A stretch of 64,000 nucleotides of DNA from a virus (IMGVR_UViG_3300042511_000631:1-64000); one strand, 5' to 3'; counted from the stretch's first letter, positions 1-30,260 are shown. Notes: generated from the letters alone by a model not told the origin. Numbers and translations are program-made.

Positions 1-120
1 CCAACTCCTCCACCGCCAACTCCTCCACCGCCAACTCCTCCACCGCCAACTCCTCCACCGCCAACTCCTCCACCGCCAACTCCTCCACCGCCAACTCCTC
101 CACCGCCAACTCCACCGCCT
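1..120 (+). repeat. 15-bp coding tandem repeat (CCAACTCCTCCACCG)
   Basis: 7 perfect copies (1-105) plus one variant copy (106-120). Confidence 0.97.
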
Positions 121-240
121 CCGGCGTGTACCCCTGGCGCGGATTGCGCATCGTTCTGTAACGAGTTTGATGCTTTGTACTACTACTACTTGTATGATTC
201 AAGTTGTAACTGTGTTTACTCGGGCTATACGTTCTGTTAG
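1..240 (+). CDS. 3' end of a Pro-rich protein: (PTPPP)n followed by a 6-Cys C-terminal tail (5' truncated by window edge)
   Basis: Frame 1 is open from base 1: (PTPPP)x8-PACTPGADCASFCNEFDALYYYYLYDSSCNCVYSGYTFC-TAG; not in the ORF track. Confidence 0.8.
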   Translation, partial: PTPPPPTPPPPTPPPPTPPPPTPPPPTPPPPTPPPPTPPPPACTPGADCASFCNEFDALYYYYLYDSSCNCVYSGYTFC

Positions 241-252
241 GATGTGCTAATG
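235..252 (+). promoter_or_regulatory. extended -10 promoter, leaderless start
   Basis: TGt-TAGGAT (238-243), 6 nt, ATG (250). Confidence 0.55.
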
Positions 253-624
253 ATTGCAAAAGTTAGCGCACCTAAGCCGTACGCGGTGATGATTGATGGG
301 GAGTACGCTCTGCCATTTTTCTTTCCTTCAGAAGGCACAGATGAAGTGGTTATGATGACAGCGGCTCTTCAAAGCAACCCAACAATTACATATGTTGGTC
401 TTGAGGCTGACGGTAACTTATGCAAATACTCTGTTTCTGTAGAAGGAGAGTTTGTAGGGTTTATTCACTACATCAATAAAGCGGATGAACCGCACCCTGC
501 GGCGATCAACGCTGCCTTACAGAGCAATCCAACATTTATTCCGATCCCAGTAGATGGCCCAGTTAGGATTGATCAAGAGTGGACGTATGATGGTTCTACG
601 TTTACTCCTGTTGTTAAGGAATAG
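250..624 (+). CDS. hypothetical protein with an internal duplication
   Basis: AALQSNPT occurs twice; WTYDGSTF-type C-terminus often seen next to phage fibre genes. Confidence 0.75.
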   Translation: MIAKVSAPKPYAVMIDGEYALPFFFPSEGTDEVVMMTAALQSNPTITYVGLEADGNLCKYSVSVEGEFVGFIHYINKADEPHPAAINAALQSNPTFIPIPVDGPVRIDQEWTYDGSTFTPVVKE

Positions 625-17109: not shown

Positions 17110-19992
17110 ATGGCAACAAGAATGCAACAGCGTAGGGGCACTGCGGCACAGTGGATCTCTACTAACAGTGGCAACGGTCCTATCCTAAACGCGGGCGAAA
17201 TTGGGTACGAGAGCGATACAAACAAATTTAAAATTGGTGATGGAACAAATCACTGGATCAACCTTGACTATTTTACTGATGCTAATTCAACAGTAAATCC
17301 ATCATTTGGTTCAAGCATTACATTTGAAGGCGCAACAGACAATAATTTTGAAACTACGGTTTTGGTAACTGACCCTACAGCAGATCGTACTATCACACTT
17401 CCAAACGCAACTGGTACAGTAGCGTTTACTTCAGATATTCCTTCATCAACAACAGCACTTTCAGAAGGAACAAACCTTTACTTCACAGACGAAAGAGCGC
17501 AGGATGCCGTTGGAAACAGTGTTGGAACTGGGCTTTCATACAACGATTCAACAGGTGCAATTTCTGTAACAGCAAACACTTATGATGCGTATGGTGCGGC
17601 AGCAACTGCAAAAACAGGAGCAGAATCAACGGCTTCAGGATATGTGTCAACACACGCAAACCTTACAGAAACACATGGCGCAACTGGTGCGGTAGTTGGA
17701 ACAACTAATACACAAACCCTTACTAACAAGACTCTTACATCACCAGTAATCAATACACCTACTGGAATTACAAAAACAGACGTTGGTCTATCAAGTGTTG
17801 ATAATACAACCGATGCTAATAAGCCAGTATCCACAGCAACACAAACAGCTCTTGATTTAAAAGCGCCCCTAGCCTCACCGACTTTCACAGGAACAGTGTC
17901 CCTTGACACTGGTGTCAACCTTGTATTTGAAGGTGCAACAGCAGATGCGTATGAGACCACTCTTACAGTAGTCGATCCAACTGCTGATAGAACTATTACA
18001 TTTCCAAATGCTACAGGAACAGTGGTTCTTGCTGATGGCAACGGAAATGTAACAATATCAGGAGACGTGACGGTCAATGGAGTTACCACCGTTATTAATA
18101 GCACAGTGCTTGAAGTTCAAAATGAAATTAAATTTGAAGGTACAACCGCAGACGCATTTGAGACAAGCCTTAAGGTTGTAGATCCAACTGCTGATAGAAC
18201 TATTACATTTCCAAATGCTACAGGAACAGTGGTTCTTGCTGATGCGACTCAAACTTTAGACAATAAATCCATTAACTTAAACGGAAATACTGTAACCGGA
18301 ACTATTGCTTTATTTAACACAGCTCTTTCAGACGCAGACTTTGCAACACTTGCGGGCACAGAAACATTAACAAATAAAACCTTAACAACTCCAAATATTA
18401 ATGAAGCAGTTGCCCTTACAGCAACAGCTACAGAGCTAAATGTTCTTGATGGGGTTACCTCATCTACCGCAGAATTAAACCTTCTTGACGGCGTAACATC
18501 TTCAACCGCAGAATTAAACATTCTTGACGGCGTAACCGCAACAGCGGCAGAATTAAACCTTCTTGACGGCGTAACATCTTCAACCGCAGAATTAAACATT
18601 CTTGACGGCGTAACCGCAACAGCGGCGCAAATAAATGTTCTTGCAAGCTTAACTTCATCTGCAACAGAACTAAATATCCTTGATGGTGTTACAGCGACTA
18701 CAGCAGAGATAAATAAACTTGCTGGAGTAACTGCAACTTCAGCTGAGATTAATACCTTATCTGGACTCACTTCTACCGCTGCAGAACTAAACATTCTTGA
18801 TGGCGCAACCCTTAGCGTAACAGAACTTAACTATGTTGATGGAGTTACTTCAGCTATTCAAACTCAATTAGACGCTAAGCAAGCAGTTGTTGCCAACGTT
18901 TCAGACACAGAAATTGGATACTTAGACGGTGTTACTTCATCTATCCAAACTCAACTAAATGGCAAGCAAGCAACTGTTGCCAATGTTTCAGATGTTGAGA
19001 TTGGATATCTTGATGGAGTTACTTCAAGCATTCAAACACAGATGGATGCTAAAGCACCACTAGCCTCACCAACATTTACAGGTACTGTAACATTGCCTTC
19101 TGGTACTGTAACAAGCACAATGATTCTTGATGGCACAATTGCAAATGCAGATATTAATGCTTCAGCAGCAATTGATTGGACAAAGATTGCTCCTTCATCA
19201 ACAGTATCTGCTACTGAGCTTGGTTACCTAGATGGTGTTACATCAGCTATTCAAACTCAATTAGATGCAAAAGCAGCACTATCAGCTCCTACATTTACAG
19301 GAACAGTGACTTCTACAAACGATGTTGTAGTTAATGGAAATTTAACGGTAAACGGTACAACTTTTAATGCATCATCAACTTCTATTACAATTGAAGATAA
19401 TATGCTGCAACTTGCTCATCAAAATTCAGCAAATACAGTAGATCTTGGTATTGTAGTTGGATACACAGACGGTACCGCAAAGCATGCAGGTTTTGTAAGA
19501 GATGTATCAGATGCTAAGTGGAAGTTGTTTAAGGATGTAGCAACAGAGCCAGCAACAACAGTAGCATTTGGCGAAGGTTCACTTGATGCACTTGCAGTAG
19601 GAGCTCTTGAAGCAACAACTGTAACACCTTCATCTGGTGTAGTATTCTCAGACGGTACACAAACCCTTGAAGGAACTCCTTCACGTACACCAATTATTCA
19701 AAAGACAGCGTCCTACACTCTCTCAGCATTAACTGAAAGAGATAGTTTAATTGAAGTTGCTAGTGCAAGCGGTACAACAATTACTATCCCACTAAACTCA
19801 GCGGTCGCATATCCAGTTGGAACCTCAATTGATATCCTTCAAACCTCAACAGGTCAGGTAACAATTGCAGGAGATGCTGGAGTAACAGTAAACTCAACAC
19901 CAGGATTAAAGTTAAGAACACAGTGGTCAACTGCAACTCTTTTCAAAAGAGCAACAAACACTTGGGTTGTTTACGGCGATCTGACAGCGTAA
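17110..19992 (+). CDS. long fibre protein with Mtd-N/hyaluronidase-N-like N-terminus
   Basis: QQRRGTAAQW...GEIGYESDTNKFKIGDG; internal repeats; C-terminal WVVYGDL. Confidence 0.8.
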   Translation: MATRMQQRRGTAAQWISTNSGNGPILNAGEIGYESDTNKFKIGDGTNHWINLDYFTDANSTVNPSFGSSITFEGATDNNFETTVLVTDPTADRTITLPNATGTVAFTSDIPSSTTALSEGTNLYFTDERAQDAVGNSVGTGLSYNDSTGAISVTANTYDAYGAAATAKTGAESTASGYVSTHANLTETHGATGAVVGTTNTQTLTNKTLTSPVINTPTGITKTDVGLSSVDNTTDANKPVSTATQTALDLKAPLASPTFTGTVSLDTGVNLVFEGATADAYETTLTVVDPTADRTITFPNATGTVVLADGNGNVTISGDVTVNGVTTVINSTVLEVQNEIKFEGTTADAFETSLKVVDPTADRTITFPNATGTVVLADATQTLDNKSINLNGNTVTGTIALFNTALSDADFATLAGTETLTNKTLTTPNINEAVALTATATELNVLDGVTSSTAELNLLDGVTSSTAELNILDGVTATAAELNLLDGVTSSTAELNILDGVTATAAQINVLASLTSSATELNILDGVTATTAEINKLAGVTATSAEINTLSGLTSTAAELNILDGATLSVTELNYVDGVTSAIQTQLDAKQAVVANVSDTEIGYLDGVTSSIQTQLNGKQATVANVSDVEIGYLDGVTSSIQTQMDAKAPLASPTFTGTVTLPSGTVTSTMILDGTIANADINASAAIDWTKIAPSSTVSATELGYLDGVTSAIQTQLDAKAALSAPTFTGTVTSTNDVVVNGNLTVNGTTFNASSTSITIEDNMLQLAHQNSANTVDLGIVVGYTDGTAKHAGFVRDVSDAKWKLFKDVATEPATTVAFGEGSLDALAVGALEATTVTPSSGVVFSDGTQTLEGTPSRTPIIQKTASYTLSALTERDSLIEVASASGTTITIPLNSAVAYPVGTSIDILQTSTGQVTIAGDAGVTVNSTPGLKLRTQWSTATLFKRATNTWVVYGDLTA
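17974..18244 (+). repeat. 64-bp identical direct repeat inside the fibre gene
   Basis: gatccaactgctgatagaac...gttcttgctgatg at 17974-18037 and 18181-18244. Confidence 0.9.
18430..18850 (+). repeat. 39-bp (13-aa, ELNxLDGVTxxxA) tandem array including a perfect 78-bp duplication
   Basis: 18469-18546 is identical to 18547-18624. Confidence 0.9.
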
Positions 19993-20005: not shown

Positions 20006-21388
20006 ATGGCTAAGAAGACTGGTAAACGTTCCGCGGCATCAAACGACTTTTTAGAGCCATTAGCGCCAACAAGCGTATCTGCTACAGATGTTGGAACAGG
20101 CAGAGCGTTTAACAATGGTGCAGCCACGGTTACATTTTCTTTGCCCGCACTATCACCTGCTGCTACATCATTTACTGTAACTTCATCTCCTGGAGGATAT
20201 ACCGGAACCGGGTCATCTTCCCCAGTTACAGTCACAGGTTTGCAATCTAACACCGCCTACACATTTACCGCAACAGCAACTAACGCTTCTGGAACTTCTC
20301 AAGCATCTACGGCATCAGCTTCTATTACCGCAACAACAGTTCCTGCTCAAATGTCCGCCCCAACCCCAACTGCCGGGGTTAACCAAAACTCAATTGCTTT
20401 TTCAGCACCGGCAACTGGTGGAAAAACTATTACTAGCTTTACCATAACAGGCTCTGATGCCACTACTGGAACAGGTGCGACTTCCCCAATTACTATCGCT
20501 GATACTGGTGGAACGTCACAGACATACACAGTCACCGCAACTAACGCTAATGGAACAAGCGTTGCTTCTGCTGCGTCTGGCTCTATTACTACGTTATCCC
20601 CATTTTTCCCGCCATTCTTCCCACCGTTCTTTCCATTTTTCCCGCCATTCTTCCCACCGTTCTTTCCATTTTTCCCATTCTTCCCGCCTTTCTTCCCGCC
20701 ATTCTTCCCATTCTTCCCGCCTTTCTTCCCGCCATCATTTGGTCCTTTCTTCCCGCCATTCTTCCCATTCTTCCCGCCTTTCTTCCCGCCATCATTTGGT
20801 CCTTTCTTCCCGCCATTCTTCCCACCATACTTTGCGTATGTGCCGCCTCCAGCGTTTAGCAAAAACTCCCTAGGCCCTAACGTACTTGTTAGAGGAGAAA
20901 ACGGTTTAATTCGTGCACAAGATTTAGTACTTGGCGACGTTATTCACTCTCTTGATATTCCAGGAATTCCGCAAAACTTTAGAGAGATTGGGACAACTCC
21001 AGAGGATCTTGCGGCAATGTCTTGGGATGTAGAGGCGATCTTATCGGCAACCCCAGTACTAACTACAATTAATAGAATACAGATTGCGCAAAGAACTGGT
21101 GCGGTAATTGTAAGCGGTGAAATGTTTACACGAAACCACCGCATACTTATTGAAAGATCTGGAATTGTAAAGATTGTAAAGGCTCAAGAGCTTTTAGAAA
21201 CAGATAAGGTGTTCGATTACCAAACATCTACTTTTGTTGATATAACTCTAGAATTTATTAACGATATTGAGTTTTATTCGTATAGCATTAACTGTGAGCC
21301 GTACGATTTTTACTTAACAGAGTCTACGTTAACATTTGATAATATTGAATGGTACCCAGACGTAGACTCTCCAAACGCGGTAGAGTAA
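20006..21388 (+). CDS. FN3-FN3-(Pro/Phe)n-Hint domain protein
   Basis: Two FN3 repeats (VTGLQSNTAYTFTATATN); 86-aa P/F tract; Hint blocks SLGPNVLV, TRNH, YSINCEPYDFY. Confidence 0.8.
   Translation: MAKKTGKRSAASNDFLEPLAPTSVSATDVGTGRAFNNGAATVTFSLPALSPAATSFTVTSSPGGYTGTGSSSPVTVTGLQSNTAYTFTATATNASGTSQASTASASITATTVPAQMSAPTPTAGVNQNSIAFSAPATGGKTITSFTITGSDATTGTGATSPITIADTGGTSQTYTVTATNANGTSVASAASGSITTLSPFFPPFFPPFFPFFPPFFPPFFPFFPFFPPFFPPFFPFFPPFFPPSFGPFFPPFFPFFPPFFPPSFGPFFPPFFPPYFAYVPPPAFSKNSLGPNVLVRGENGLIRAQDLVLGDVIHSLDIPGIPQNFREIGTTPEDLAAMSWDVEAILSATPVLTTINRIQIAQRTGAVIVSGEMFTRNHRILIERSGIVKIVKAQELLETDKVFDYQTSTFVDITLEFINDIEFYSYSINCEPYDFYLTESTLTFDNIEWYPDVDSPNAVE
20600..20857 (+). repeat. PFF/PPFF coding microsatellite with a 57-bp higher-order duplication
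   Basis: FFPPFFPFFPPFFPPSFGP twice (atcatttggtcc at 20734 and 20791). Confidence 0.95.
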
Positions 21389-21391
21389 AAA

Positions 21392-21904
21392 TTGATTATT
21401 TATAATGACCATAAATCCATAAAATTTAATCCTGATATAAAAGAATATCCAAAAGAATTATCTGGATCATGGTTTTGTTTTACAAAAATAGAAGGTCATC
21501 CAATTCTTGCTGGGATGTGTGCTGTTTATTTTAATGACGAATACCCAAGCGGAACAATTATAGTTTCTAACTACGTACTAGATCAATATCCAGATATATA
21601 CGCTACATGGGATAAAGACTATATGTCAAATAGAATGTTTGTATCCCCAAAATTAAGAAAAAGCGGAAAAGGCAAAAACGCACTTATTGTCGGAGATCAG
21701 TTTATTAAGTTTTTAGGAAATGAGTTACAATATTCTTATGGGGATCATGAAAATGGAGATTTTCTTTTTAATGGGGCATACTCTTTAAATAAAAAAAATG
21801 AAAACAAATATGTTAATGACCTTAACATGTTTGACTTTAGAGACTCAGCCTACCCACTAATACATTTTGATAAAAGGTTCATAAAATATGAAGTATACGC
21901 ATAG
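21392..21904 (+). CDS. GNAT-like acyltransferase
   Basis: MFVSPKLRKSGKGKNAL matches acetyl-CoA-binding motif A (V.P..R..G.G). Confidence 0.5.
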   Translation: MIIYNDHKSIKFNPDIKEYPKELSGSWFCFTKIEGHPILAGMCAVYFNDEYPSGTIIVSNYVLDQYPDIYATWDKDYMSNRMFVSPKLRKSGKGKNALIVGDQFIKFLGNELQYSYGDHENGDFLFNGAYSLNKKNENKYVNDLNMFDFRDSAYPLIHFDKRFIKYEVYA

Positions 21905-23091: not shown

Positions 23092-23811
23092 ATGGATGTA
23101 TACAACGAGAATGAAAACCCCTGGTTTACTAAAGATCGGTCTGAGACAGCTTCCAACAGGGTTGTAAGACTAATGCCTAAAAGCAATATCCCTATTAGTA
23201 ATCCGGGACTAGGGTTAAATGTTTATCATAATACTTTTTCTTTGGATGACTCTAAAAGGTATATTAAAACGCTTGAGTCCAACTTGGCTAATGGCGGCAA
23301 ATATAAGTGGTCAGAAGCCCAAGTAACAAACTCTGACGTGCCGATTAAAAAAGCAAGAGATTGCGTAGACTTTAAGTACAAACAAGAAAATCTAGGGCCA
23401 AGAGACGAATCTAATAAAGAGTTACTTGATCTTCATGAAGAGATATATCAAAAACTAAAGATGTGTGTGGACGACTACGCACACTACTGGGGCATAAATG
23501 TTACATATTATGAAGCATTTAACTTTGTAAAATACGAAGGTGAGGGTACCCATTTTAATATTCATGCCGATCATGGCCCTGCTTACAACTGCACAGTCTC
23601 TGCGGTAATCTATATTAATGACGATTATGAAGGTGGAGAGCTTAAATTTCCAAGACTAGATAACCTTGTTCATGTCCCAAAAGTTGGTGATATAGCTATT
23701 TTCCCTTCAAACTATATTTATGAACACGCATCTTTGCCGATGAAAACAGGAACAAAATACTGTGTTGTTATCATGACAGATATAAATCTTTTAGGCCATC
23801 CGACAACTTAA
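23092..23811 (+). CDS. 2OG-Fe(II) oxygenase, prolyl 4-hydroxylase-like
   Basis: HADHG, YINDDYEGGEL, HAS...KY. Confidence 0.92.
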   Translation: MDVYNENENPWFTKDRSETASNRVVRLMPKSNIPISNPGLGLNVYHNTFSLDDSKRYIKTLESNLANGGKYKWSEAQVTNSDVPIKKARDCVDFKYKQENLGPRDESNKELLDLHEEIYQKLKMCVDDYAHYWGINVTYYEAFNFVKYEGEGTHFNIHADHGPAYNCTVSAVIYINDDYEGGELKFPRLDNLVHVPKVGDIAIFPSNYIYEHASLPMKTGTKYCVVIMTDINLLGHPTT

Positions 23812-23824
23812 ACTAGGAGAATAT

Positions 23825-24499
23825 ATGAGTACAGAACCTACAACCCCACAATCTTGGAGTAGTTATGAAGAGCTTGCTCCAGGAATATTTGTTTACCACG
23901 ACGTCTTACCAACAGGTCTAAACCTTGTTGATAGACTAGAGTCTGTTTTACAACCTTTAGGGTCTACTGGGTATGCTTGGCAACCAGCTTATGTGGGGTA
24001 TCAACAGCTAATGCCGGAGTATAGAGATTGTGTTGATTTTAAGTTTAAAAAAACAGATGTTCAAAAAGATAATTCAGAAAGCTCTAGGCAACTACAAGAA
24101 ATTTGGCAAGACTGCTACGATAGACAAGCGTTAGCGGTAGAGGATTATTGCCAACGATTTAACATCAACAACTTAAGGTATTGGGAAGCCTTTAACTATA
24201 TTAAGTATGAGGCGGGGCATCATTTTATGGAGCATCACGATCACGGGTTCTCTTATAACTGCACGCTGTCTTTAGTCGCCTATCTTAATGATACTTTTGA
24301 GGGTGGAGAGTTGTTCTTTAGACTTCAAGGGCTAACATATGTCCCAAAAGCTGGAGATGTTGTACTATTCCCGTCTAACTTTATGTACCCTCATCAAGCA
24401 AAAGTCGTTCACTCTGGGACAAAATACTCATTAGTAACAATGCTTGACTATAGTGAAAAGTACCATACACCAGACATGTATCATGAGACTGGATCATAA
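23825..24499 (+). CDS. 2OG-Fe(II) oxygenase, prolyl 4-hydroxylase-like
   Basis: HHDHG, YLNDTFEGGEL, HQA...KY; close paralogue of the previous gene. Confidence 0.92.
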   Translation: MSTEPTTPQSWSSYEELAPGIFVYHDVLPTGLNLVDRLESVLQPLGSTGYAWQPAYVGYQQLMPEYRDCVDFKFKKTDVQKDNSESSRQLQEIWQDCYDRQALAVEDYCQRFNINNLRYWEAFNYIKYEAGHHFMEHHDHGFSYNCTLSLVAYLNDTFEGGELFFRLQGLTYVPKAGDVVLFPSNFMYPHQAKVVHSGTKYSLVTMLDYSEKYHTPDMYHETGS

Positions 24500-25221
24500 T
24501 GTCAATTATTACGGCTTATAAAAAAACACCAACGGCGTTGATTATAGAGCCAATGTCTATTAAGCGCGACTGGATGGACGAAACTCCACAAGGCCATGCT
24601 TATAGGTGCCACCCGGTAACCTCCGCCAATGTTGTTGGTTGGAGCATATCTTCTCCAGTAGACATTAAGTTTATTTGGAACGGTATTAACGACACAAGCG
24701 GTACATCTGTAAAAATTTTAGAAGGTCAAACCTATGTTTATACAGGTAGAGGGCAATCTACAGTTAGCTTTAATACTGGTTTTATCCTTAAAACAAATCA
24801 AAATGTAAGTGTACTAACTGTTACACCTCAAAATTATTTTAATCCAGATATAGAAGTCATGTCTTCTTTGATATCTACATCCTTTTTAAGCACTGATTTC
24901 CCGTTAGCAATTAAGTGCCTGACAGCAAACAAAGAAATTACTATTAAAGCAGGAACTCCAATAGCAACTATCATTCCTATATCTTTGACCTCTTTAAAGG
25001 ATGAATCGGTTGAAGTTGTTGAGTTTGTTCAAACTAAAGAGTACACCGATGCGGTAACATCCTATGGCGCGGCCGCTCAAGAAATAAATAAAACCGGAGA
25101 GTGGACTGATTGGTATAGAAATGCTGTAAACGAAAAGGGGGATTCAGTAGGGTCCCATGAAGTAAAAAACTTAAAGCTTAGTGTTATTGATAATACAGGG
25201 GCTAATAATGAAAATAATTAA
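24499..25221 (+). CDS. DUF6065-like protein
   Basis: RDWMDET...AYRCHPVTSANVVGW. Confidence 0.7.
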   Translation: MSIITAYKKTPTALIIEPMSIKRDWMDETPQGHAYRCHPVTSANVVGWSISSPVDIKFIWNGINDTSGTSVKILEGQTYVYTGRGQSTVSFNTGFILKTNQNVSVLTVTPQNYFNPDIEVMSSLISTSFLSTDFPLAIKCLTANKEITIKAGTPIATIIPISLTSLKDESVEVVEFVQTKEYTDAVTSYGAAAQEINKTGEWTDWYRNAVNEKGDSVGSHEVKNLKLSVIDNTGANNENN

Positions 25222-25972
25222 TTTTATAAGCAATAGACCGTGGCTTACTAAAGAGAGTAAATCAAAACCGGTTCCGACCTCAAAGTCAATACCGCAATGG
25301 TACAAAAACGCGGATAGGTTTGCTAAAATGCCAACTGGAGAACACTACCAAGCAACAAAAGAGATGTGTCCATTCCCTAAAAAAGGCACAACTGATGATT
25401 ATGGGAAGATCCCTACATGGAAAGCTTGTCCTGCACTTTTGGATGTTTTAACAACAGGGTATACCTTGATCACTCCTTGCGACATAGAGTTTTTCTTAGA
25501 TAGCGCTGGGCAGATTGATTTTAAAATTGAAGACCCAATGTATAAAGAGTTTGTTAACAAACGCCCACCTATGCCACAATTTTATCACCCAAAGGGTTAC
25601 TACGAATATCATTTTGCTTGGTGGCCCGAATGGGCGGTAAAAGTTCCAGCTGGGTATAGCGTTTTATATGTATCTCCGTTTAATCGTTACGACATTCCAA
25701 TTATGACAGTTTCTGGGATTATTGATAACGACGAGGTTAACCTTCCTGGATTAATGCCATTTTTTGTACAAGAAGGCTGGGCTGGAGTTTTACCAGCAGG
25801 CACTCCTTACGCTCAACTGTTGCCTTTTTTAAGGGAAGATTGGAAGTCTGAAATTAACATTCCAAAAGAAGTAGAGATGATACAAAACAATATGGAAAAC
25901 AGCAAAAAGTATCGTATTGCAGATGGAGGGGTGTATCAGAAAGAGGTCTGGACTAGGCGGCTCTACGAATAG
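25208..25972 (+). CDS. DUF6065-related protein
   Basis: PQWYK, TWKACPALLD, SGIIDND, GTPYAQLLPF. Confidence 0.6.
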   Translation: MKIINFISNRPWLTKESKSKPVPTSKSIPQWYKNADRFAKMPTGEHYQATKEMCPFPKKGTTDDYGKIPTWKACPALLDVLTTGYTLITPCDIEFFLDSAGQIDFKIEDPMYKEFVNKRPPMPQFYHPKGYYEYHFAWWPEWAVKVPAGYSVLYVSPFNRYDIPIMTVSGIIDNDEVNLPGLMPFFVQEGWAGVLPAGTPYAQLLPFLREDWKSEINIPKEVEMIQNNMENSKKYRIADGGVYQKEVWTRRLYE

Positions 25973-25976
25973 GGAA

Positions 25977-25994
25977 TGGTATAATTAAAACATG
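25977..25994 (+). promoter_or_regulatory. extended -10 promoter, leaderless start
   Basis: TGg-TATAAT (25980-25985), 6 nt, ATG. Confidence 0.7.
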
Positions 25995-26672
25995 AAACAA
26001 AACAATGACTCATACACGACAGTTAAACGCACACCGTCTATGACCCCATCTGGTTGGTTTGGGGATAGCAAGGACATGATTGTCGAGCTAGAGAACTTCA
26101 TGACGCTAGAAGAAATAGAGTTTTTAGAAAAAGCTGCTAAATCTTTAACAATTTGGGATGTAACGCAAAGCCATACGAATGAAAATGGAACCGTTACCTA
26201 TGATTCAGATTATTGGAAAGATAGGGTTGCAAGTCAACCAACCTTAGATAAAAATGATCCAAAGATATCCCCAGTAATTGCTGGACTATTCATAAGATTA
26301 AAACCAATTATTGAAGAGTTTTATAAGGTAAAGGCCCAGCCAACAGGCACAACTATTGTTAAATGGCTCCCTGGGCAGTTTCAAAACCCCCATGCTGATA
26401 AAGAGCTTCATGAAGGGCCTGATGCTGGGACACCTAATGATTTTCCAAACTATGACCTTTCAAGTTTGTTTTATCTTAATGACGATTATGAAGGTGGCGA
26501 ACTATACTTCCCACTACAGGGGGTACAGTTTAAACCTAAAAAAGGCGCTGCTTACTTCTTCCCGGGAGATAAAAATTATATTCACGGGGTTACTGAAATC
26601 AAGAGTGGTTTAAGGTTTACATGCCCACTATTTTGGGAAATAACCCGACATACAGGGGATAGGCAACCGTAA
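25992..26672 (+). CDS. 2OG-Fe(II) oxygenase, prolyl 4-hydroxylase-like
   Basis: HADKE, YLNDDYEGGEL, HGV...RF. Confidence 0.92.
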   Translation: MKQNNDSYTTVKRTPSMTPSGWFGDSKDMIVELENFMTLEEIEFLEKAAKSLTIWDVTQSHTNENGTVTYDSDYWKDRVASQPTLDKNDPKISPVIAGLFIRLKPIIEEFYKVKAQPTGTTIVKWLPGQFQNPHADKELHEGPDAGTPNDFPNYDLSSLFYLNDDYEGGELYFPLQGVQFKPKKGAAYFFPGDKNYIHGVTEIKSGLRFTCPLFWEITRHTGDRQP

Positions 26673-26679
26673 TGACGGA

Positions 26680-26694
26680 TATAATACAATTATG
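26680..26694 (+). promoter_or_regulatory. -10 promoter, leaderless start
   Basis: TATAAT (26680-26685), 6 nt, ATG. Confidence 0.65.
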
Positions 26695-27465
26695 AAATCT
26701 ATTTATGATATCCCGCTTAATTCGGCCGAAGGGGCCCCTAGCTTCTTAGGCCAATTTAAGGGTAAAGTAACGCTGCTAACAAATACGACAGTGGGCTGTG
26801 GTAATGCTAATCAAATGGAAGTTCTCCAATGGCTTCAAGATAAGTACGGTGGAGATGATTTCCAAGTAGTTGCTATCCCTACTAATGACTACTGTGGCCC
26901 TGGCGTTACTAAGGGCAAGTGGTCACAAGGCATTACTTGTGGCTTAGACTCACAAGAGTATGGCAAAGACACTTATGGGACTACCTTTAAGTTTTCAGAG
27001 ATGGTTGCGTCAAACCCAAATAAAAGTGCTAATGAAATGAGCCCTCACAAAGGAAATGACTCTGTAAATGGGTTAGGTCAACCTAAACAAAAAACTCATG
27101 AGCTGTATAAAGAAATATCAGATCAAATGCTTGCGTATGCCGCAAAACAAAAAGAGCTCGGCATTCCAGATAGAGATGGGTATATGTCACCTTGGCTAAA
27201 TCAACCTGTCGCTAATGGAGCAATGCAAGGCGGAAACTTTGAAAAGTATCTTATTGATAAAGACGGATTTGTGGCAAATTGGTTCCAATGTACCGTTTTA
27301 AATTATGATATTGAAAAAACCCTTAAAGAAGATTTAATAGCTAAAGGCACCCCTGCTGCTATGGGAGAAGGCAGAACTCCAGAAGTATTTGAAGAAGAAT
27401 ATAACCTTGTTCAACAAGAGATAGAAAAATTAATTGCTGGAGATAAATCCCTTATAAATAACTAA
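26692..27465 (+). CDS. glutathione peroxidase-like (Cys-GPx) protein
   Basis: GKVTLLTNTTVGCG, VAIPTNDYC, NFEKYLIDKDG. Confidence 0.85.
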   Translation: MKSIYDIPLNSAEGAPSFLGQFKGKVTLLTNTTVGCGNANQMEVLQWLQDKYGGDDFQVVAIPTNDYCGPGVTKGKWSQGITCGLDSQEYGKDTYGTTFKFSEMVASNPNKSANEMSPHKGNDSVNGLGQPKQKTHELYKEISDQMLAYAAKQKELGIPDRDGYMSPWLNQPVANGAMQGGNFEKYLIDKDGFVANWFQCTVLNYDIEKTLKEDLIAKGTPAAMGEGRTPEVFEEEYNLVQQEIEKLIAGDKSLINN

Positions 27466-27481
27466 ACGGAGCACAAGCACA

Positions 27482-28237
27482 ATGAATCTAGAAAACAAAA
27501 AAAGAATAACAAAAGACATAGTTGTTTATAAGAACTTTATAAGCAGAGAAGACTGCAAAAAAATGATTCAAGCCTTAGATGCTCAAGCGGACAACGGGGC
27601 AATTTCTTGGATGCCTATTTCATTTTATGAGTCATACTCTTCAGTATTGCCACAAGACAACGATAAAGAAATAATTGATGCTGGGCTATCTCCAACTATA
27701 TTCTCAGACATTGAAAAAATAATGCCAGAGGCAATTGCTTCAGTTCACGACTTAGACCCAAAAACAATTTCTAAAATCGGGTATCACACACAAAAATGGG
27801 AGCCGGGAGCATACGCAAGAATCCACTCTGACAATACGGATGCGCATGGAAAGTCAGGGGCATTTACAAGAAGCCGTTACGCAGGTTTTCTATATCTTAA
27901 TGATGACTTTAAAGGAGGATTACTTAAGTTTCCAAGTCAACACATAGAGATCAAACCAGAAGTTGGAATGCTTGCCGTTTTTGACGGGGGATTTAACAAC
28001 ATGCACGAAGTATCTTTAATAGAGAGCGGAGTAAGGTACACCATTGGATCTTTCTGGGATGATAGAGAAGAGTCAGATTATCCGCAAGAACTAAGAGATG
28101 CTTGGGCTGCAGAAATGAAAGAGACTAGAGCTCAACAAGAAGTTGAACGAGCAGAGTGGCAAGATTTGCTTAAGCAGGGCTGGAAGCTAGATGCGGACGG
28201 TAATAAATACAAAGTAAAAGAGACTACAAATGATTGA
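27482..28237 (+). CDS. 2OG-Fe(II) oxygenase, prolyl 4-hydroxylase-like
   Basis: HSDN, YLNDDFKGG, HEV...RY. Confidence 0.92.
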   Translation: MNLENKKRITKDIVVYKNFISREDCKKMIQALDAQADNGAISWMPISFYESYSSVLPQDNDKEIIDAGLSPTIFSDIEKIMPEAIASVHDLDPKTISKIGYHTQKWEPGAYARIHSDNTDAHGKSGAFTRSRYAGFLYLNDDFKGGLLKFPSQHIEIKPEVGMLAVFDGGFNNMHEVSLIESGVRYTIGSFWDDREESDYPQELRDAWAAEMKETRAQQEVERAEWQDLLKQGWKLDADGNKYKVKETTND

Positions 28238-28889
28238 GCCCTTTAAACAACAGTTGATAGATAGCGGGTATGTAGTTACAGATATTACCCCAGAACTATT
28301 TTCTGTTGAAAACTTTTTATCACAAGATCAACTAAATACTTTTTGGGATATTATCCACAGTACGTCTCAAGAAGATTGGGAAGTAGAGTACCACGCAAAC
28401 TTAAAGTATTTTTGCATGGAAAAATTTGGCAGAGATGATGTTGATAACCTGGTTGCTGAAGGTAAGTTTGAAATTACTCAAAATTGGAAAGATAAAAACT
28501 TTAATATATTACATCACGAGATCCAGAGGCCATTATATGACGGCTTAAACTCAATGGTAGTCAAAGCTGATCCAGAGTTAATTTTAAGTGGTTTTGCAAC
28601 AATTCAAAGAATGCAAACAGGAGTAGAACTAAAAGCTCATACTGACCAAAAAACAGACCCCTCTATAAAATACGCTACGATTGTATATATTAATGATGAC
28701 TATGCAGATGGCGAGTTATTTTTTCCAAACCTGGGGATCCAGTTAAAGCCTAAACCAGGAACTATGTTGTTTTTTCCAGGTAATGAGCAATATGAGCATG
28801 GGGTTAAGCACGTAGGTGAGGGCCAAATAAGATACGTTCTTGTTGGCTTTATTAAAGAAAAATATCACTATCAAAATAATAAATACTAG
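28230..28889 (+). CDS. 2OG-Fe(II) oxygenase, prolyl 4-hydroxylase-like
   Basis: HTDQ, YINDDYADGEL, HGV...RY. Confidence 0.92.
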   Translation: MIEPFKQQLIDSGYVVTDITPELFSVENFLSQDQLNTFWDIIHSTSQEDWEVEYHANLKYFCMEKFGRDDVDNLVAEGKFEITQNWKDKNFNILHHEIQRPLYDGLNSMVVKADPELILSGFATIQRMQTGVELKAHTDQKTDPSIKYATIVYINDDYADGELFFPNLGIQLKPKPGTMLFFPGNEQYEHGVKHVGEGQIRYVLVGFIKEKYHYQNNKY

Positions 28890-28899
28890 GGAGCATTAA

Positions 28900-29589
28900 A
28901 TGGATAAAGAAATTTTAAATGAAAAAGTATACTACTATAAAAATGGCGTTAAAAACTTTGAAGAGCTTATGAAAAATGTTTATGAGTTAGACAATCTAGA
29001 TAACCCTCAACCTTGGGAAAACTGGACCGCATCCAACGACAAAAACTTTATCTATGGAAAAACCATGTCATTTGATAAAAACCAAATAGGAAAACTAGAA
29101 GATCCGTACAAATCTAAAATGTCTTATATTTTTGATACTATTATGGAATCATTTTATGATGTCTCTAAAGATTTTGCCATGTCTATTGGGGATACTGATG
29201 AACCTAGACTGTTTCCAGTATTTAATATTAAAAAATACAATGTTGGAATTGGAATGGGTGCCCATTTTGACCAGCTAGATGGGGATCAAACCCTAAGGTA
29301 CTCTTTAGTTATGTATTTAAACGATGATTTTGAGGGTGGAGAAATATCATTTAAATTATCTGACTATAAAAATATAGGGGAATTTCCAACTCCAAATCTT
29401 GATTATGATGTGGCTGTTGCAAATAATGAAATTGATTTTGGATTAAAACCTAAAGCTGGAAGTATTATTATTTTTCCATCTATGGCGCCATATCACCATA
29501 CTGCTCATATTGTAAAAACTGGATTTAAATATATGGTGCCAAGTCACTGGATCCATAATAATATGGACCTTCATCAAAGTCACATGTAA
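28900..29589 (+). CDS. 2OG-Fe(II) oxygenase, prolyl 4-hydroxylase-like
   Basis: HFDQ, YLNDDFEGGEI, HTA...KY. Confidence 0.92.
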   Translation: MDKEILNEKVYYYKNGVKNFEELMKNVYELDNLDNPQPWENWTASNDKNFIYGKTMSFDKNQIGKLEDPYKSKMSYIFDTIMESFYDVSKDFAMSIGDTDEPRLFPVFNIKKYNVGIGMGAHFDQLDGDQTLRYSLVMYLNDDFEGGEISFKLSDYKNIGEFPTPNLDYDVAVANNEIDFGLKPKAGSIIIFPSMAPYHHTAHIVKTGFKYMVPSHWIHNNMDLHQSHM

Positions 29590-29594
29590 TATAA

Positions 29595-30260
29595 ATGAAA
29601 ACAGCTATTGTAACTGGGGCAAGCAAAGGGGTAGGGTTAGCAACAGTTAAACGCCTGTCTGAAAATGGGTACAAGGTCATCGCTGTTTCAAGAGATCTTT
29701 CCAAAGTGTCTGAGCTTGTTTCTGATAACGTTGAGGTCTATAGGCTAGACATTACAGACTCTAAAGCAATAGAAATATTCTTTGAAAAATATAAAAATAT
29801 AACCCTAGACCTTTTAGTTAACAACGCAGGTGGCGGCTCTGGACCAACCCACATTATTAATGAAACTCCAGAAAACTTTAGAAGAGCCTACGATATAAAC
29901 GTAACGGGCCCTATGTATTTATCTCAACTATTTGTACCCTGTATGAGAAGGTCACAATCTCCAACAATTGTCTTTATTACCTCTTTTGGCGGTAAGGTGC
30001 CCTATCGCGGTGGGGGGAACTATACAAATGCCAAGAGGGGTGAGCGCGGTCTAATTGACACCATGAGGCTTGAGTTTCCTCAATTTGGCATTAAAATTAC
30101 AGATATCTGCCCAGCTACCATCGACACCCAAGAACAAAAACGGGATCAGGCGTTAACCGCAGAGGATTTAGCGGAAGCTATTTACTGGGTGGGGTCATTA
30201 CCAAGCCATGTTAATATAAATGAGATTGAAATTTGTCATATTAACAGTAGTAAGTACTGA
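29595..30260 (+). CDS. short-chain dehydrogenase/reductase (SDR)
   Basis: TGASKGVG, NNAG, YTNAK (YxxxK). Confidence 0.92.
   Translation: MKTAIVTGASKGVGLATVKRLSENGYKVIAVSRDLSKVSELVSDNVEVYRLDITDSKAIEIFFEKYKNITLDLLVNNAGGGSGPTHIINETPENFRRAYDINVTGPMYLSQLFVPCMRRSQSPTIVFITSFGGKVPYRGGGNYTNAKRGERGLIDTMRLEFPQFGIKITDICPATIDTQEQKRDQALTAEDLAEAIYWVGSLPSHVNINEIEICHINSSKY

What the first reader, a model, noticed from the sequence alone, without database searches (positions are those of the whole stretch)
20867..21343. Non-canonical Hint domain: Ser nucleophile and TxxH retained, C-terminal His-Asn replaced
Seen: directly after the PFF tract comes SLGPNVLVRGENG (block A-like, Ser in place of Cys1), then FTRNH (block B TxxH) and YSINCEPYDFYLTE (block F-like). 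It ends LTFDN rather than xxHN, followed by a 15-aa tail. Established: Hedgehog and BIL Hint domains use the N-terminal acyl shift to cleave, or to attach a nucleophile to, the upstream domain. Inference: it may release the FN3-PFF part or ligate its C-terminus to another molecule or virion protein, rather than splice.
Basis: partly seen in the sequence, partly recalled or inferred. Interest (0 to 1): 0.75.

Follow-up and report, generated by a model that had tools for sequence, protein, structure and literature searches.

The report
Self-cleaving Hint cap on phage stalk protein
An uncultured phage's particle-type protein (two fibronectin-like domains plus a proline/phenylalanine stalk) really does end in an intein-like "Hint" domain. 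That domain keeps the residues for the first self-cleavage step, so it probably cuts itself off the stalk, a step not described for phage proteins in any paper I found.

Summary
Residues S288-D445 of the 460-aa ORF (window 20006-21388, +) form a Hint fold. The AlphaFold2 model has pLDDT 90.6 and matches BIL domains, mini-inteins and Hedgehog HhC at Z 14-17.

Model residue 6 (Ser288) falls on intein residue 1 and on Hedgehog Cys258. Residue 163 (Asp445) falls on the inteins' terminal Asn. So "LTFDN" is read as Phe-Asp in place of His-Asn, with Asn446 as a non-nucleophilic +1.

The domain belongs to a large family known only from metagenomes: 89 clusters at 50% identity and 258 IMG/VR stretches. 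It always lies at or near the C-terminal end, behind an aromatic/Pro/Gly stalk.
- Residue 1 is Ser (109/115) or Cys (3).
- Block B [ST]xxH is invariant.
- The terminal residue is Asp (100) or Asn (11).
- The +1 residue is not conserved.

Orthologues of the FN3-stalk part end in this Hint, in a small Cys-rich knob, or right after the stalk.

Best reading: a BIL/Hedgehog-like self-cleaving cap that works by an N-to-O acyl shift at Asn287|Ser288. Whether the ester is hydrolysed or passed to another nucleophile is open, and no chemistry is shown.

The scan has noted C-terminal Hint caps on phage fibres in other genomes. This one is a Ser1/Asp-terminal variant.

The parts
20006..21388 (+). Whole gene, 460 aa: basic N-terminal peptide (K-rich, NDFLEP), two FN3-like domains, Pro/Phe stalk, Hint domain, short tail
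   Evidence: ORF list and translation. Pfam fn3 at aa 38-104, E 3.7e-6. The family profile matches tandem FN3 of titin and neogenin.
20600..20851 (+). Pro/Phe stalk, aa 199-282 (39 Phe, 37 Pro of 84)
   Evidence: Composition count. Across the family, the 40 aa before residue 1 are 20% P, 20% F, 14.5% G and 9% A.
20864..20869 (+). Predicted scissile junction Asn287 | Ser288 (Hint residue 1, block A)
   Evidence: Model residue 6 aligns with residue 1 of Mtu RecA, PI-SceI, Ssp DnaE and MchDnaB1 inteins, and with Cys258 of Hedgehog. The profile aligns it with gp41-1 residue 1. In the family it is Ser 109, Cys 3 of 115.
20867..21340 (+). Hint domain proper, Ser288-Asp445
   Evidence: AF2 pLDDT 90.6, pTM 0.84. 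Foldseek PDB top hits are 2lwy at 4e-8, 9hth and 6y75. VIA-align gives Z 14-17.3 and rmsd 1.6-2.4 A over 118-142 residues. dN/dS is 0.2-0.3 against six close homologues.
21128..21139 (+). Block B, Thr375-x-x-His378
   Evidence: S/T in 71 of 71 and His in 71 of 71 aligned family members. Aligned with block B of the Aes123 PolB1 intein 9hth.
21278..21340 (+). Blocks F and G (aa 425-445). Ser427 is at the block F:4 Asp position, Asp434 at the block F His position, and Phe444-Asp445 at the His-Asn positions.
   Evidence: Profile alignment to 9hth and gp41-1. Column counts: position 145 is S53/T8/C4, E149/P150/D152/T156 are nearly invariant, 162 is H36/Y16/F15, 163 is D55/N12/E2.
21341..21385 (+). 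15-aa tail, Asn446-Glu460 (+1 residue Asn); NIEW.P[DE] is conserved only in the closest clade
   Evidence: pLDDT falls to 70 and then 53 here. Family tails have a median of 5 aa.
21392..21904 (+). Neighbour, not part of the domain: 170-aa GNAT-like gene that follows the Hint gene in most related loci
   Evidence: A homologue lies directly downstream in 68 of 79 loci. AF2 pLDDT is 67, and all top Foldseek hits are GNAT acetyltransferases but at E about 0.02. ESM Atlas neighbours are GNAT. This is a lead only.

Best explanation
Ser288-Asp445 is a genuine Hint (Hedgehog/intein) domain that still has its catalytic residues. It caps the C-terminus of a phage particle-type protein built as basic N-peptide, two FN3 domains and a Pro/Phe stalk.

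Most likely mechanism:
1. After folding, the Ser288 hydroxyl attacks the Asn287 carbonyl. This is an N-to-O acyl shift assisted by block B Thr375/His378.
2. The resulting oxyester is resolved, most simply by water.
3. The roughly 19-kDa Hint cap detaches, and the FN3-stalk part ends at Asn287.

The +1 residue is Asn446 and only 14 residues follow it. The domain therefore behaves like a bacterial intein-like (BIL) or Hedgehog-type self-cleaving module, not like a splicing intein.

Shown: the fold, the residue-by-residue mapping of both ends, family-wide conservation of the first-step residues, purifying selection, and exchangeability of the cap among orthologues.

Inferred: that the acyl shift and cleavage happen, and that water is the acceptor.
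For: Fold:
- AF2 pLDDT is 90.6.
- All top PDB matches are Hint domains, with Z 14-17.3.

Ends:
- Model residues 6..163 align with residues 1..last of at least ten inteins.
- In the Hedgehog HhC alignment (model 6..165, HhC 258..402), residue 6 falls on Cys258.

Sequence homology:
- The profile hits 2lwy (BIL), gp41-1 and 9hth.
- 7 of 71 members hit Pfam Intein_splicing.

Signature of catalysis:
- Residue 1 is Ser 109 or Cys 3 of 115. The other 3 were read as Thr, possibly a pattern-matching error, so no member shows a non-nucleophile.
- [ST]xxH is present in 71 of 71, although the domains are only about 25-40% identical.
- dN/dS is 0.2-0.3.

Not a splicer:
- The +1 residue is not conserved (S53, G27, N9, R7 and others), tails have a median of 5 aa, and the query has Asn.
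- BIL domains that lack a +1 nucleophile give mainly cleavage products (PMC7664689).

The cap is dispensable for the mature architecture:
- Of 72 listed proteins with the same N-terminal motif, 51 end in this Hint, 7 in a small Cys-rich knob and 9 right after the stalk.
Against: - No experimental or proteomic evidence of processing exists for any family member.
- Two residues that help canonical inteins are replaced: block F:4 Asp is Ser427 and the penultimate His is Phe444.
- Oxyesters are less reactive than thioesters.
- N-terminal cleavage alone does not explain why the Asp/Asn at the intein Asn position is so strongly conserved (111 of 115). Some chemistry or contact at the C-terminal junction is probably also selected.
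- The Hint-less forms that stop after the stalk could partly be assembly or frameshift artefacts in repeat DNA. One listed protein, P0118, is visibly frameshifted.
Confidence: 0.5

Rival explanations
1. Ligation rather than release. The Asn287-O-Ser288 ester is resolved by a specific nucleophile, such as a Lys or N-terminus of a virion protein, a cell-envelope component or a small molecule. The FN3-stalk part would then be tethered covalently through its C-terminus, as Hedgehog attaches cholesterol or sortase attaches wall-spanning adhesins.
For: - The first-step evidence is the same as for the best explanation.
- The layout of binding domains, low-complexity spacer and C-terminal acyl-activating module resembles sortase substrates and Hedgehog (established knowledge).
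- There is no recognisable virion-attachment domain elsewhere in the protein.
- A GNAT-like (acyl-transfer fold) gene follows in 68 of 79 loci.
Against: - No acceptor is identified and there is no sterol-recognition-like extension.
- The synteny comes from related phages and is not independent evidence.
- Orthologues that simply stop after the stalk, or carry a Cys-rich knob, cannot use this chemistry.
Confidence: 0.2
2. Non-cleaving module. The Hint fold stays attached and serves as a binding, anchoring or folding domain at the end of the stalk, comparable in position to the capsid-binding C-terminal domain of T4 Hoc.
For: - It is interchangeable with a Cys-rich knob at the same position.
- It has family-specific conserved features outside the catalytic blocks: Trp58 (model numbering) in an insert between blocks A and B, and the E-P-x-D motif.
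Against: - A purely structural role does not predict that residue 1 is only ever Ser or Cys and that [ST]xxH is invariant across 71-115 diverged members.
- Cys1 members also carry the canonical His-Asn.
Confidence: 0.17
3. Two-junction chemistry. Asp445 cyclises, as the Asn, Gln or Asp of class 1 inteins does. This cuts off the short tail or, in family members with Ser or Thr at +1, splices the tail onto the stalk.
For: - The terminal residue is Asp 100, Asn 11 of 115, and +1 is Ser or Thr in about half of the members.
- One clade has a conserved 30-40-aa tail after H-D|S.
- C-terminal Asp is accepted among class 1 inteins (PMC7664689).
Against: - In this protein +1 is Asn and the penultimate residue is Phe.
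- Across the family, +1 is often Gly, Asn, Arg, Lys or Val.
- Tails are mostly 4-7 aa.
Confidence: 0.1
4. A decaying intein remnant with no present function.
For: It has phage intein relatives (gp41-1 and the Aes123 PolB1 intein are among the nearest matches).
Against: - 89 clusters and 258 viral stretches share the same terminal position.
- dN/dS is 0.2-0.3.
- No interrupted host protein or C-extein is present.
Confidence: 0.03

Closest known systems
Bacterial intein-like (BIL) domains: C. thermocellum BIL (PDB 2lwy) and Tetrahymena BUBL BIL2 (PDB 6y75/6tmm)
   Same: - Best structural and sequence matches: Foldseek 4e-8, Z 16.5-17.3, profile E 4.5e-6.
- N-terminal nucleophile and block B present.
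- No +1 nucleophile, so cleavage is expected rather than splicing.
- Found in variable, non-conserved proteins.
   Different: - Ser instead of Cys at position 1.
- Phe-Asp (family: His/Tyr/Phe-Asp) instead of His-Asn.
- Always at the extreme C-terminus of phage particle-type proteins, behind an aromatic/Pro stalk.
- Not recognised by Pfam PT-HINT or Hint_2 models.
Class 1 mini-inteins of phages, including the Ser1, cysteine-less Aes123 PolB1 intein (PDB 9hth) and gp41-1 (6qaz/6riz)
   Same: - Both ends align residue for residue.
- Blocks A, B, F and G are recognisable.
- 9hth also uses Ser1.
   Different: - No C-extein and no +1 Ser/Thr/Cys in this protein.
- Block F Asp is replaced by Ser, the block F His by Asp, and the terminal Asn by Asp.
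- Not inserted in a conserved enzyme.
Hedgehog C-terminal autoprocessing domain (HhC; PDB 1at0, 6tyy)
   Same: - C-terminal Hint that uses only the first acyl shift to detach, and modify, the N-terminal functional part.
- Z 15.8-16.2, with Ser288 on Cys258.
   Different: - No sterol-recognition region follows the Hint (only a 15-aa tail).
- Ser instead of Cys.
- No evidence of a lipid or other acceptor.
Peptidase S74 intramolecular chaperone domain of phage tail fibres and spikes
   Same: A functional analogy only: a C-terminal module of phage fibre proteins rich in low-complexity sequence that cleaves itself off at a Ser after assembly (PMC7824862).
   Different: - Unrelated fold and a Ser-Lys mechanism.
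- No S74 match in this protein.

Membership tests
HINT superfamily (Hedgehog/intein fold) | Horseshoe-like all-beta Hint fold | tested here: met
   AF2 pLDDT 90.6. 81 PDB Hint chains at Z >= 8, best 17.3, rmsd about 2 A over 137 residues.
HINT superfamily (Hedgehog/intein fold) | Cys or Ser nucleophile as the first residue of the domain | tested here: met
   Ser288 aligns with intein residue 1 and Hedgehog Cys258. In the family it is Ser 109, Cys 3 of 115.
HINT superfamily (Hedgehog/intein fold) | Block B Thr/Ser-x-x-His | tested here: met
   Thr375 and His378. 71 of 71 members have S/T and His. Aligned to block B of 9hth.
Class 1 intein (splicing) | Inserted in a host protein, with a C-extein starting with Cys, Ser or Thr | tested here: not met
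   Only 15 residues follow Asp445 and +1 is Asn446. The +1 residue is not conserved in the family.
Class 1 intein (splicing) | C-terminal Asn (or Gln/Asp), usually preceded by His | tested here: inconclusive
   Asp445 occupies the Asn position, and Asp is allowed according to PMC7664689. The penultimate residue is Phe444, not His.
Class 1 intein (splicing) | Block F conserved Asp (F:4) and His | tested here: not met
   The aligned positions hold Ser427 (family S53/T8/C4) and Asp434.
A-type BIL / Pfam PT-HINT, Hint_2 | Match to the family models; conserved C-terminal His-Asn | tested here: not met
   No Pfam or NCBIfam hit for the query domain even at E <= 10. It ends in Phe-Asp. Only 1 of 71 relatives touches Hint_2 and 7 of 71 Intein_splicing.
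A-type BIL / Pfam PT-HINT, Hint_2 | No +1 nucleophile; located in variable, non-conserved proteins; cleavage rather than splicing | tested here: met
   Asn446 at +1. The N-terminal architectures vary (FN3, PASTA, Ig). Cleavage itself cannot be tested here.
Hedgehog Hog domain | Hint followed by a sterol/adduct recognition region; cholesterol transfer | tested here: not met
   There is no region after the Hint beyond a poorly ordered 15-aa tail.
Peptidase S74 intramolecular chaperone | S74 fold with a Ser-Lys dyad | tested here: not met
   No Pfam match, and the fold is Hint.
Any Hint autoprocessing domain | Demonstrated self-cleavage | not testable with these tools
   Needs expression with mutants, or MS of virions.

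The most novel reading that the evidence does not exclude
The Hint cap is a built-in "self-sortase". The oxyester at Asn287 is passed to an amine or hydroxyl on the virion or on the host envelope, possibly with help from the GNAT-like protein encoded next door in 68 of 79 related loci. The FN3 (or, in relatives, PASTA) adhesin would thereby be tethered covalently through its aromatic/Pro stalk. This would be a new way for phages to build or anchor particle decorations, and a natural protein-ligation tool based on Ser/Asp chemistry.
Probability: 0.15. Interest if true: 0.9.

Novelty: new variant of a known kind. Interest (0 to 1): 0.6.

Why it matters
Hint domains are known as inteins, BIL domains of secreted bacterial proteins and the Hedgehog processing domain. 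I found no paper describing a Hint cap at the end of phage particle proteins.

This family is large (89 clusters at 50% identity, 258 viral stretches). It is confined to uncultured phages and has its own catalytic make-up: Ser1, block F Ser, terminal Asp.

If it cleaves, it adds a second, unrelated self-removing end-module for phage fibres or decorations, beside the S74 chaperone. If it transfers, it would be a new covalent assembly chemistry and a possible cysteine-free protein-ligation tool.

It also defines the C-terminal end of the mature Pro/Phe stalk. That matters for reading the neighbouring prolyl-hydroxylase-like gene island.

Tried and rejected
- Pfam, PHROGs and NCBIfam scans of the domain alone gave nothing.
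- blastn and tblastn against 50,697 GenBank phage records found no relative of the domain. A 783-aa family member matched only through its N-terminal peptide.
- The first word-based protein search found a single homologue. The exhaustive HMMER scan was needed to find the family.
- Complex prediction of the Hint domain with the GNAT-like neighbour returned no verdict. It is reported here only and not used as evidence.
- The structure of the GNAT-like neighbour was only moderately confident (pLDDT 67), and its PDB matches were weak (E about 0.02). It stays a lead.
- Literature searches for phage C-terminal Hint or intein-like fibre domains found only ordinary inteins in terminase and polymerase genes, plus reviews.
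- I considered shifting the register so that Asp-Asn would match His-Asn. I rejected it because at least ten structural alignments and two profile alignments end at Asp445.

Full report
**The gene and its setting.** The window is the first 64 kb of a 96.5-kb IMG/VR virus record with direct terminal repeats. The finding lies in a 460-aa ORF at 20006-21388 on the + strand. Upstream are the genes for terminase, portal and major head protein, a protein matching a head-decoration family, and three fibre-like proteins. Downstream are an island of small enzyme genes, then the tail sheath and baseplate genes. So this is a myovirus-type structural region.

The protein has four parts:
- a basic N-terminal peptide (K-rich, NDFLEP);
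- an FN3 domain detected by Pfam (aa 38-104, E 3.7e-6), and a second FN3-like repeat;
- an 84-aa tract of 39 Phe and 37 Pro (aa 199-282);
- the segment in question.

**Checking the observation.** The coordinates are exact. 20867 starts the Ser288 codon, and 21343 ends Asn446 of LTFDN. All quoted motifs are present.

They are not chance resemblances. An exhaustive HMMER scan with the last 178 residues found 89 representative clusters (50 of them below 1e-10). In the listed rows the matched stretch nearly always ends within a few residues of the C-terminus, in proteins of roughly 170 to 920 aa. One 1108-aa protein carries two copies in tandem.

With a 71-sequence alignment, AlphaFold2 gave a confident model (pLDDT 90.6, pTM 0.84). 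Foldseek against the PDB returned only Hint domains at the top:
- the C. thermocellum BIL domain 2lwy (4e-8);
- the cysteine-less Aes123 PolB1 intein 9hth;
- Tetrahymena BIL2 6y75;
- many mini-inteins and Hedgehog HhC.

VIA-align gave Z 14-17.3 with rmsd 1.6-2.4 A over 118-142 residues.

Sequence profiles agree. The family profile hits 2lwy (4.5e-6), gp41-1 (3e-4) and 9hth (5e-4). Seven of 71 members reach Pfam Intein_splicing on their own.

**Mapping the catalytic positions.** In the structural alignments, model residues 6..163 pair with residues 1..440 of the Mtu RecA intein, 1..454 of PI-SceI, 1..159 of Ssp DnaE and 1..145 of MchDnaB1. Model residues 6..165 pair with 258..402 of Hedgehog. 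The profile alignments to gp41-1 and 9hth end at the same residues.

This gives the following assignments:
- Ser288 is Hint residue 1.
- Thr375 and His378 are block B.
- Ser427 sits where inteins have the block F Asp.
- Asp434 sits where inteins have the block F His.
- Phe444-Asp445 sit at the His-Asn positions.
- Asn446 is the +1 residue.

The Asn of LTFDN, however, is the +1 residue, and the Asn position holds Asp.

**What the family conserves.** I counted 115 non-redundant members in which both ends could be located. The results were:
- Residue 1 is Ser in 109 and Cys in 3. The remaining 3 were read as Thr by my pattern and may be mis-assigned.
- The penultimate residue is His 59, Tyr 30 or Phe 21.
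- The terminal residue is Asp 100, Asn 11 or Glu 2.
- The +1 residue is Ser 53, Gly 27, Asn 9, Arg 7 or others.
- The tail after the terminal residue has a median of 5 aa.

[ST]xxH is present in 71 of 71 aligned members. The few Cys1 members mostly carry His-Asn: two end His-Asn and one His-Ser.

The domain is under purifying selection, with dN/dS of 0.2-0.3 against six homologues of 56-73% identity.

Residue 1 is a hydroxyl or thiol nucleophile in every located member, and block B is invariant, in domains that are otherwise only 25-40% identical. That pattern is expected for a working acyl-shift site, not for a purely structural domain.

**Architecture and context.** The 40 residues before residue 1 are always low-complexity: P 20%, F 20%, G 14.5%, A 9%. 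The repeats are of the PFF, GAF, PFGFT or PPP type.

N-terminal parts vary. They include FN3 (21 of 71), PASTA (19 of 71) and Ig-like domains, usually behind a short basic peptide.

A scan of IMG/VR found 258 stretches, and 80 loci were fetched. No GenBank phage record contains the domain. The best BFVD matches are proteins of "uncultured Caudovirales phage", auto-named PASTA, Fibronectin type III or Hint-domain proteins.

In the fetched loci the gene has consistent neighbours:
- It follows a homologue of the 960-aa fibre gene in 69 of 71 loci.
- It is followed at once by a homologue of the 170-aa gene at 21392 in 68 of 79 loci.
- 2OG-Fe(II) oxygenase genes lie further downstream in 46 of 68 loci.

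These phages are related to one another, so this synteny is not independent evidence of functional coupling.

The 170-aa neighbour looks GNAT-like. It has a V-x-P-x-x-R-x-x-G motif, all its top Foldseek hits are GNAT enzymes, and its ESM Atlas neighbours are GNAT. The model is only moderately confident and the matches are weak.

**An exchangeable cap.** I searched with the N-terminal 198 residues and kept the 72 listed proteins that share the N-terminal motif. Of these:
- 51 end in this Hint domain;
- 7 end in a small Cys-rich knob directly after the aromatic/Pro stalk;
- 9 stop right after the stalk.

Some short forms may be artefacts of repeat DNA. Two independent clusters end in nearly the same way, so at least some are real. 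The mature architecture therefore does not need the Hint domain. This fits a module that is removed.

**Mechanism.** The best-supported reading is a BIL/Hedgehog-type self-processing cap.
1. An N-to-O acyl shift occurs at Asn287|Ser288.
2. The ester is then resolved, which detaches the cap.

Splicing is unlikely for this protein, because +1 is Asn, the penultimate residue is Phe and only 14 residues follow. BIL domains without a +1 nucleophile give mainly cleavage products (PMC7664689).

What resolves the ester, water or a specific nucleophile, cannot be decided here.

The strong conservation of Asp/Asn at the intein Asn position is not explained by N-terminal cleavage alone. C-terminal Asp is accepted among class 1 inteins (PMC7664689). 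About half the family has Ser or Thr at +1. One clade has a conserved 30-40-aa tail after H-D|S. Chemistry at the C-terminal junction, or even splicing of a short tail, may therefore operate in some members.

**Comparison with what is known, and novelty.** By fold and logic this is a member of the HINT superfamily. It is closest to BIL domains and to Ser1 phage mini-inteins, and it works most like Hedgehog HhC or BIL.

It fails the defining features of a splicing intein: there is no C-extein nucleophile, block F Asp is missing, and the penultimate His is missing. It fails those of A-type BIL models (no His-Asn, no model hit) and of the Hog domain (no adduct-recognition region).

I found no paper describing C-terminal Hint caps on phage particle proteins. 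The S74 chaperone is the known functional analogue (PMC7824862).

Earlier AI notes of this scan report C-terminal Hint caps on phage fibres in other genomes, so the phenomenon has been seen before on other DNA. This family is a distinct variant: Ser1, Asp-terminal, linked to an aromatic/Pro stalk.

I rate it a new variant of a known kind, with interest 0.6.

Noticed in passing
window 21392-21904 (+): A 170-aa gene with no Pfam, PHROG or NCBIfam hit follows the Hint gene directly in 68 of 79 related loci. It has a GNAT-like V-x-P-x-x-R-x-x-G motif, weak GNAT structural matches and GNAT neighbours in the ESM Atlas.
   Followed up: partly
proteins P0095, P0098, P0165, P0178, P0182, P0208, P0213: Orthologues with the same basic N-peptide, FN3 domains and aromatic/Pro stalk end in a small Cys-rich knob (4-9 Cys in about 20-40 aa) instead of the Hint domain. 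Others (P0149, P0210, P0130, P0197) stop right after the stalk.
   Followed up: partly
protein P0090 (1108 aa): It carries two Hint domains of this family in tandem, separated by an 18-aa linker. The first ends Tyr-Asp|Ser and the second ends Asn-Asn.
   Followed up: no
proteins P0057, P0073, P0064, P0084: This clade has a conserved 30-40-aa tail after His-Asp|Ser, containing an L-x-x-L-Y-x-x-W helix-like motif. It is a candidate real C-extein.
   Followed up: no
family N-termini: Three recurring N-terminal types occur in front of the Hint-capped stalks: K-rich peptide with NDFLEP plus FN3; R/K-rich peptide plus PASTA domain; and W-K repeat peptides (for example x-V-x-x-G-x-W-K). PASTA hints at Gram-positive, possibly actinobacterial, hosts.
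   Followed up: no
window 23092-30260 (+): A run of small genes that includes several 2OG-Fe(II) oxygenase (2OG-FeII_Oxy_3) paralogues, a DUF6065 protein (24499) and a glutathione-peroxidase-like protein (26692). Oxygenase homologues follow the Hint gene in 46 of 68 related loci.
   Followed up: partly
window 17110-19992 (+): The 960-aa fibre has an Mtd_N-type N-terminal domain and many 'ELN-x-LDGVT' type repeats. Its C-terminal part is the most conserved upstream neighbour of the Hint gene (69 of 71 loci).
   Followed up: no
Hint domain, aa 318-348 of the ORF (window about 20957-21049): A family-specific insert between blocks A and B holds two short helices and a nearly invariant Trp (Trp340). 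The motif E-P-x-D (aa 431-434) replaces the intein block F G-x-H. The function of both is unknown.
   Followed up: no
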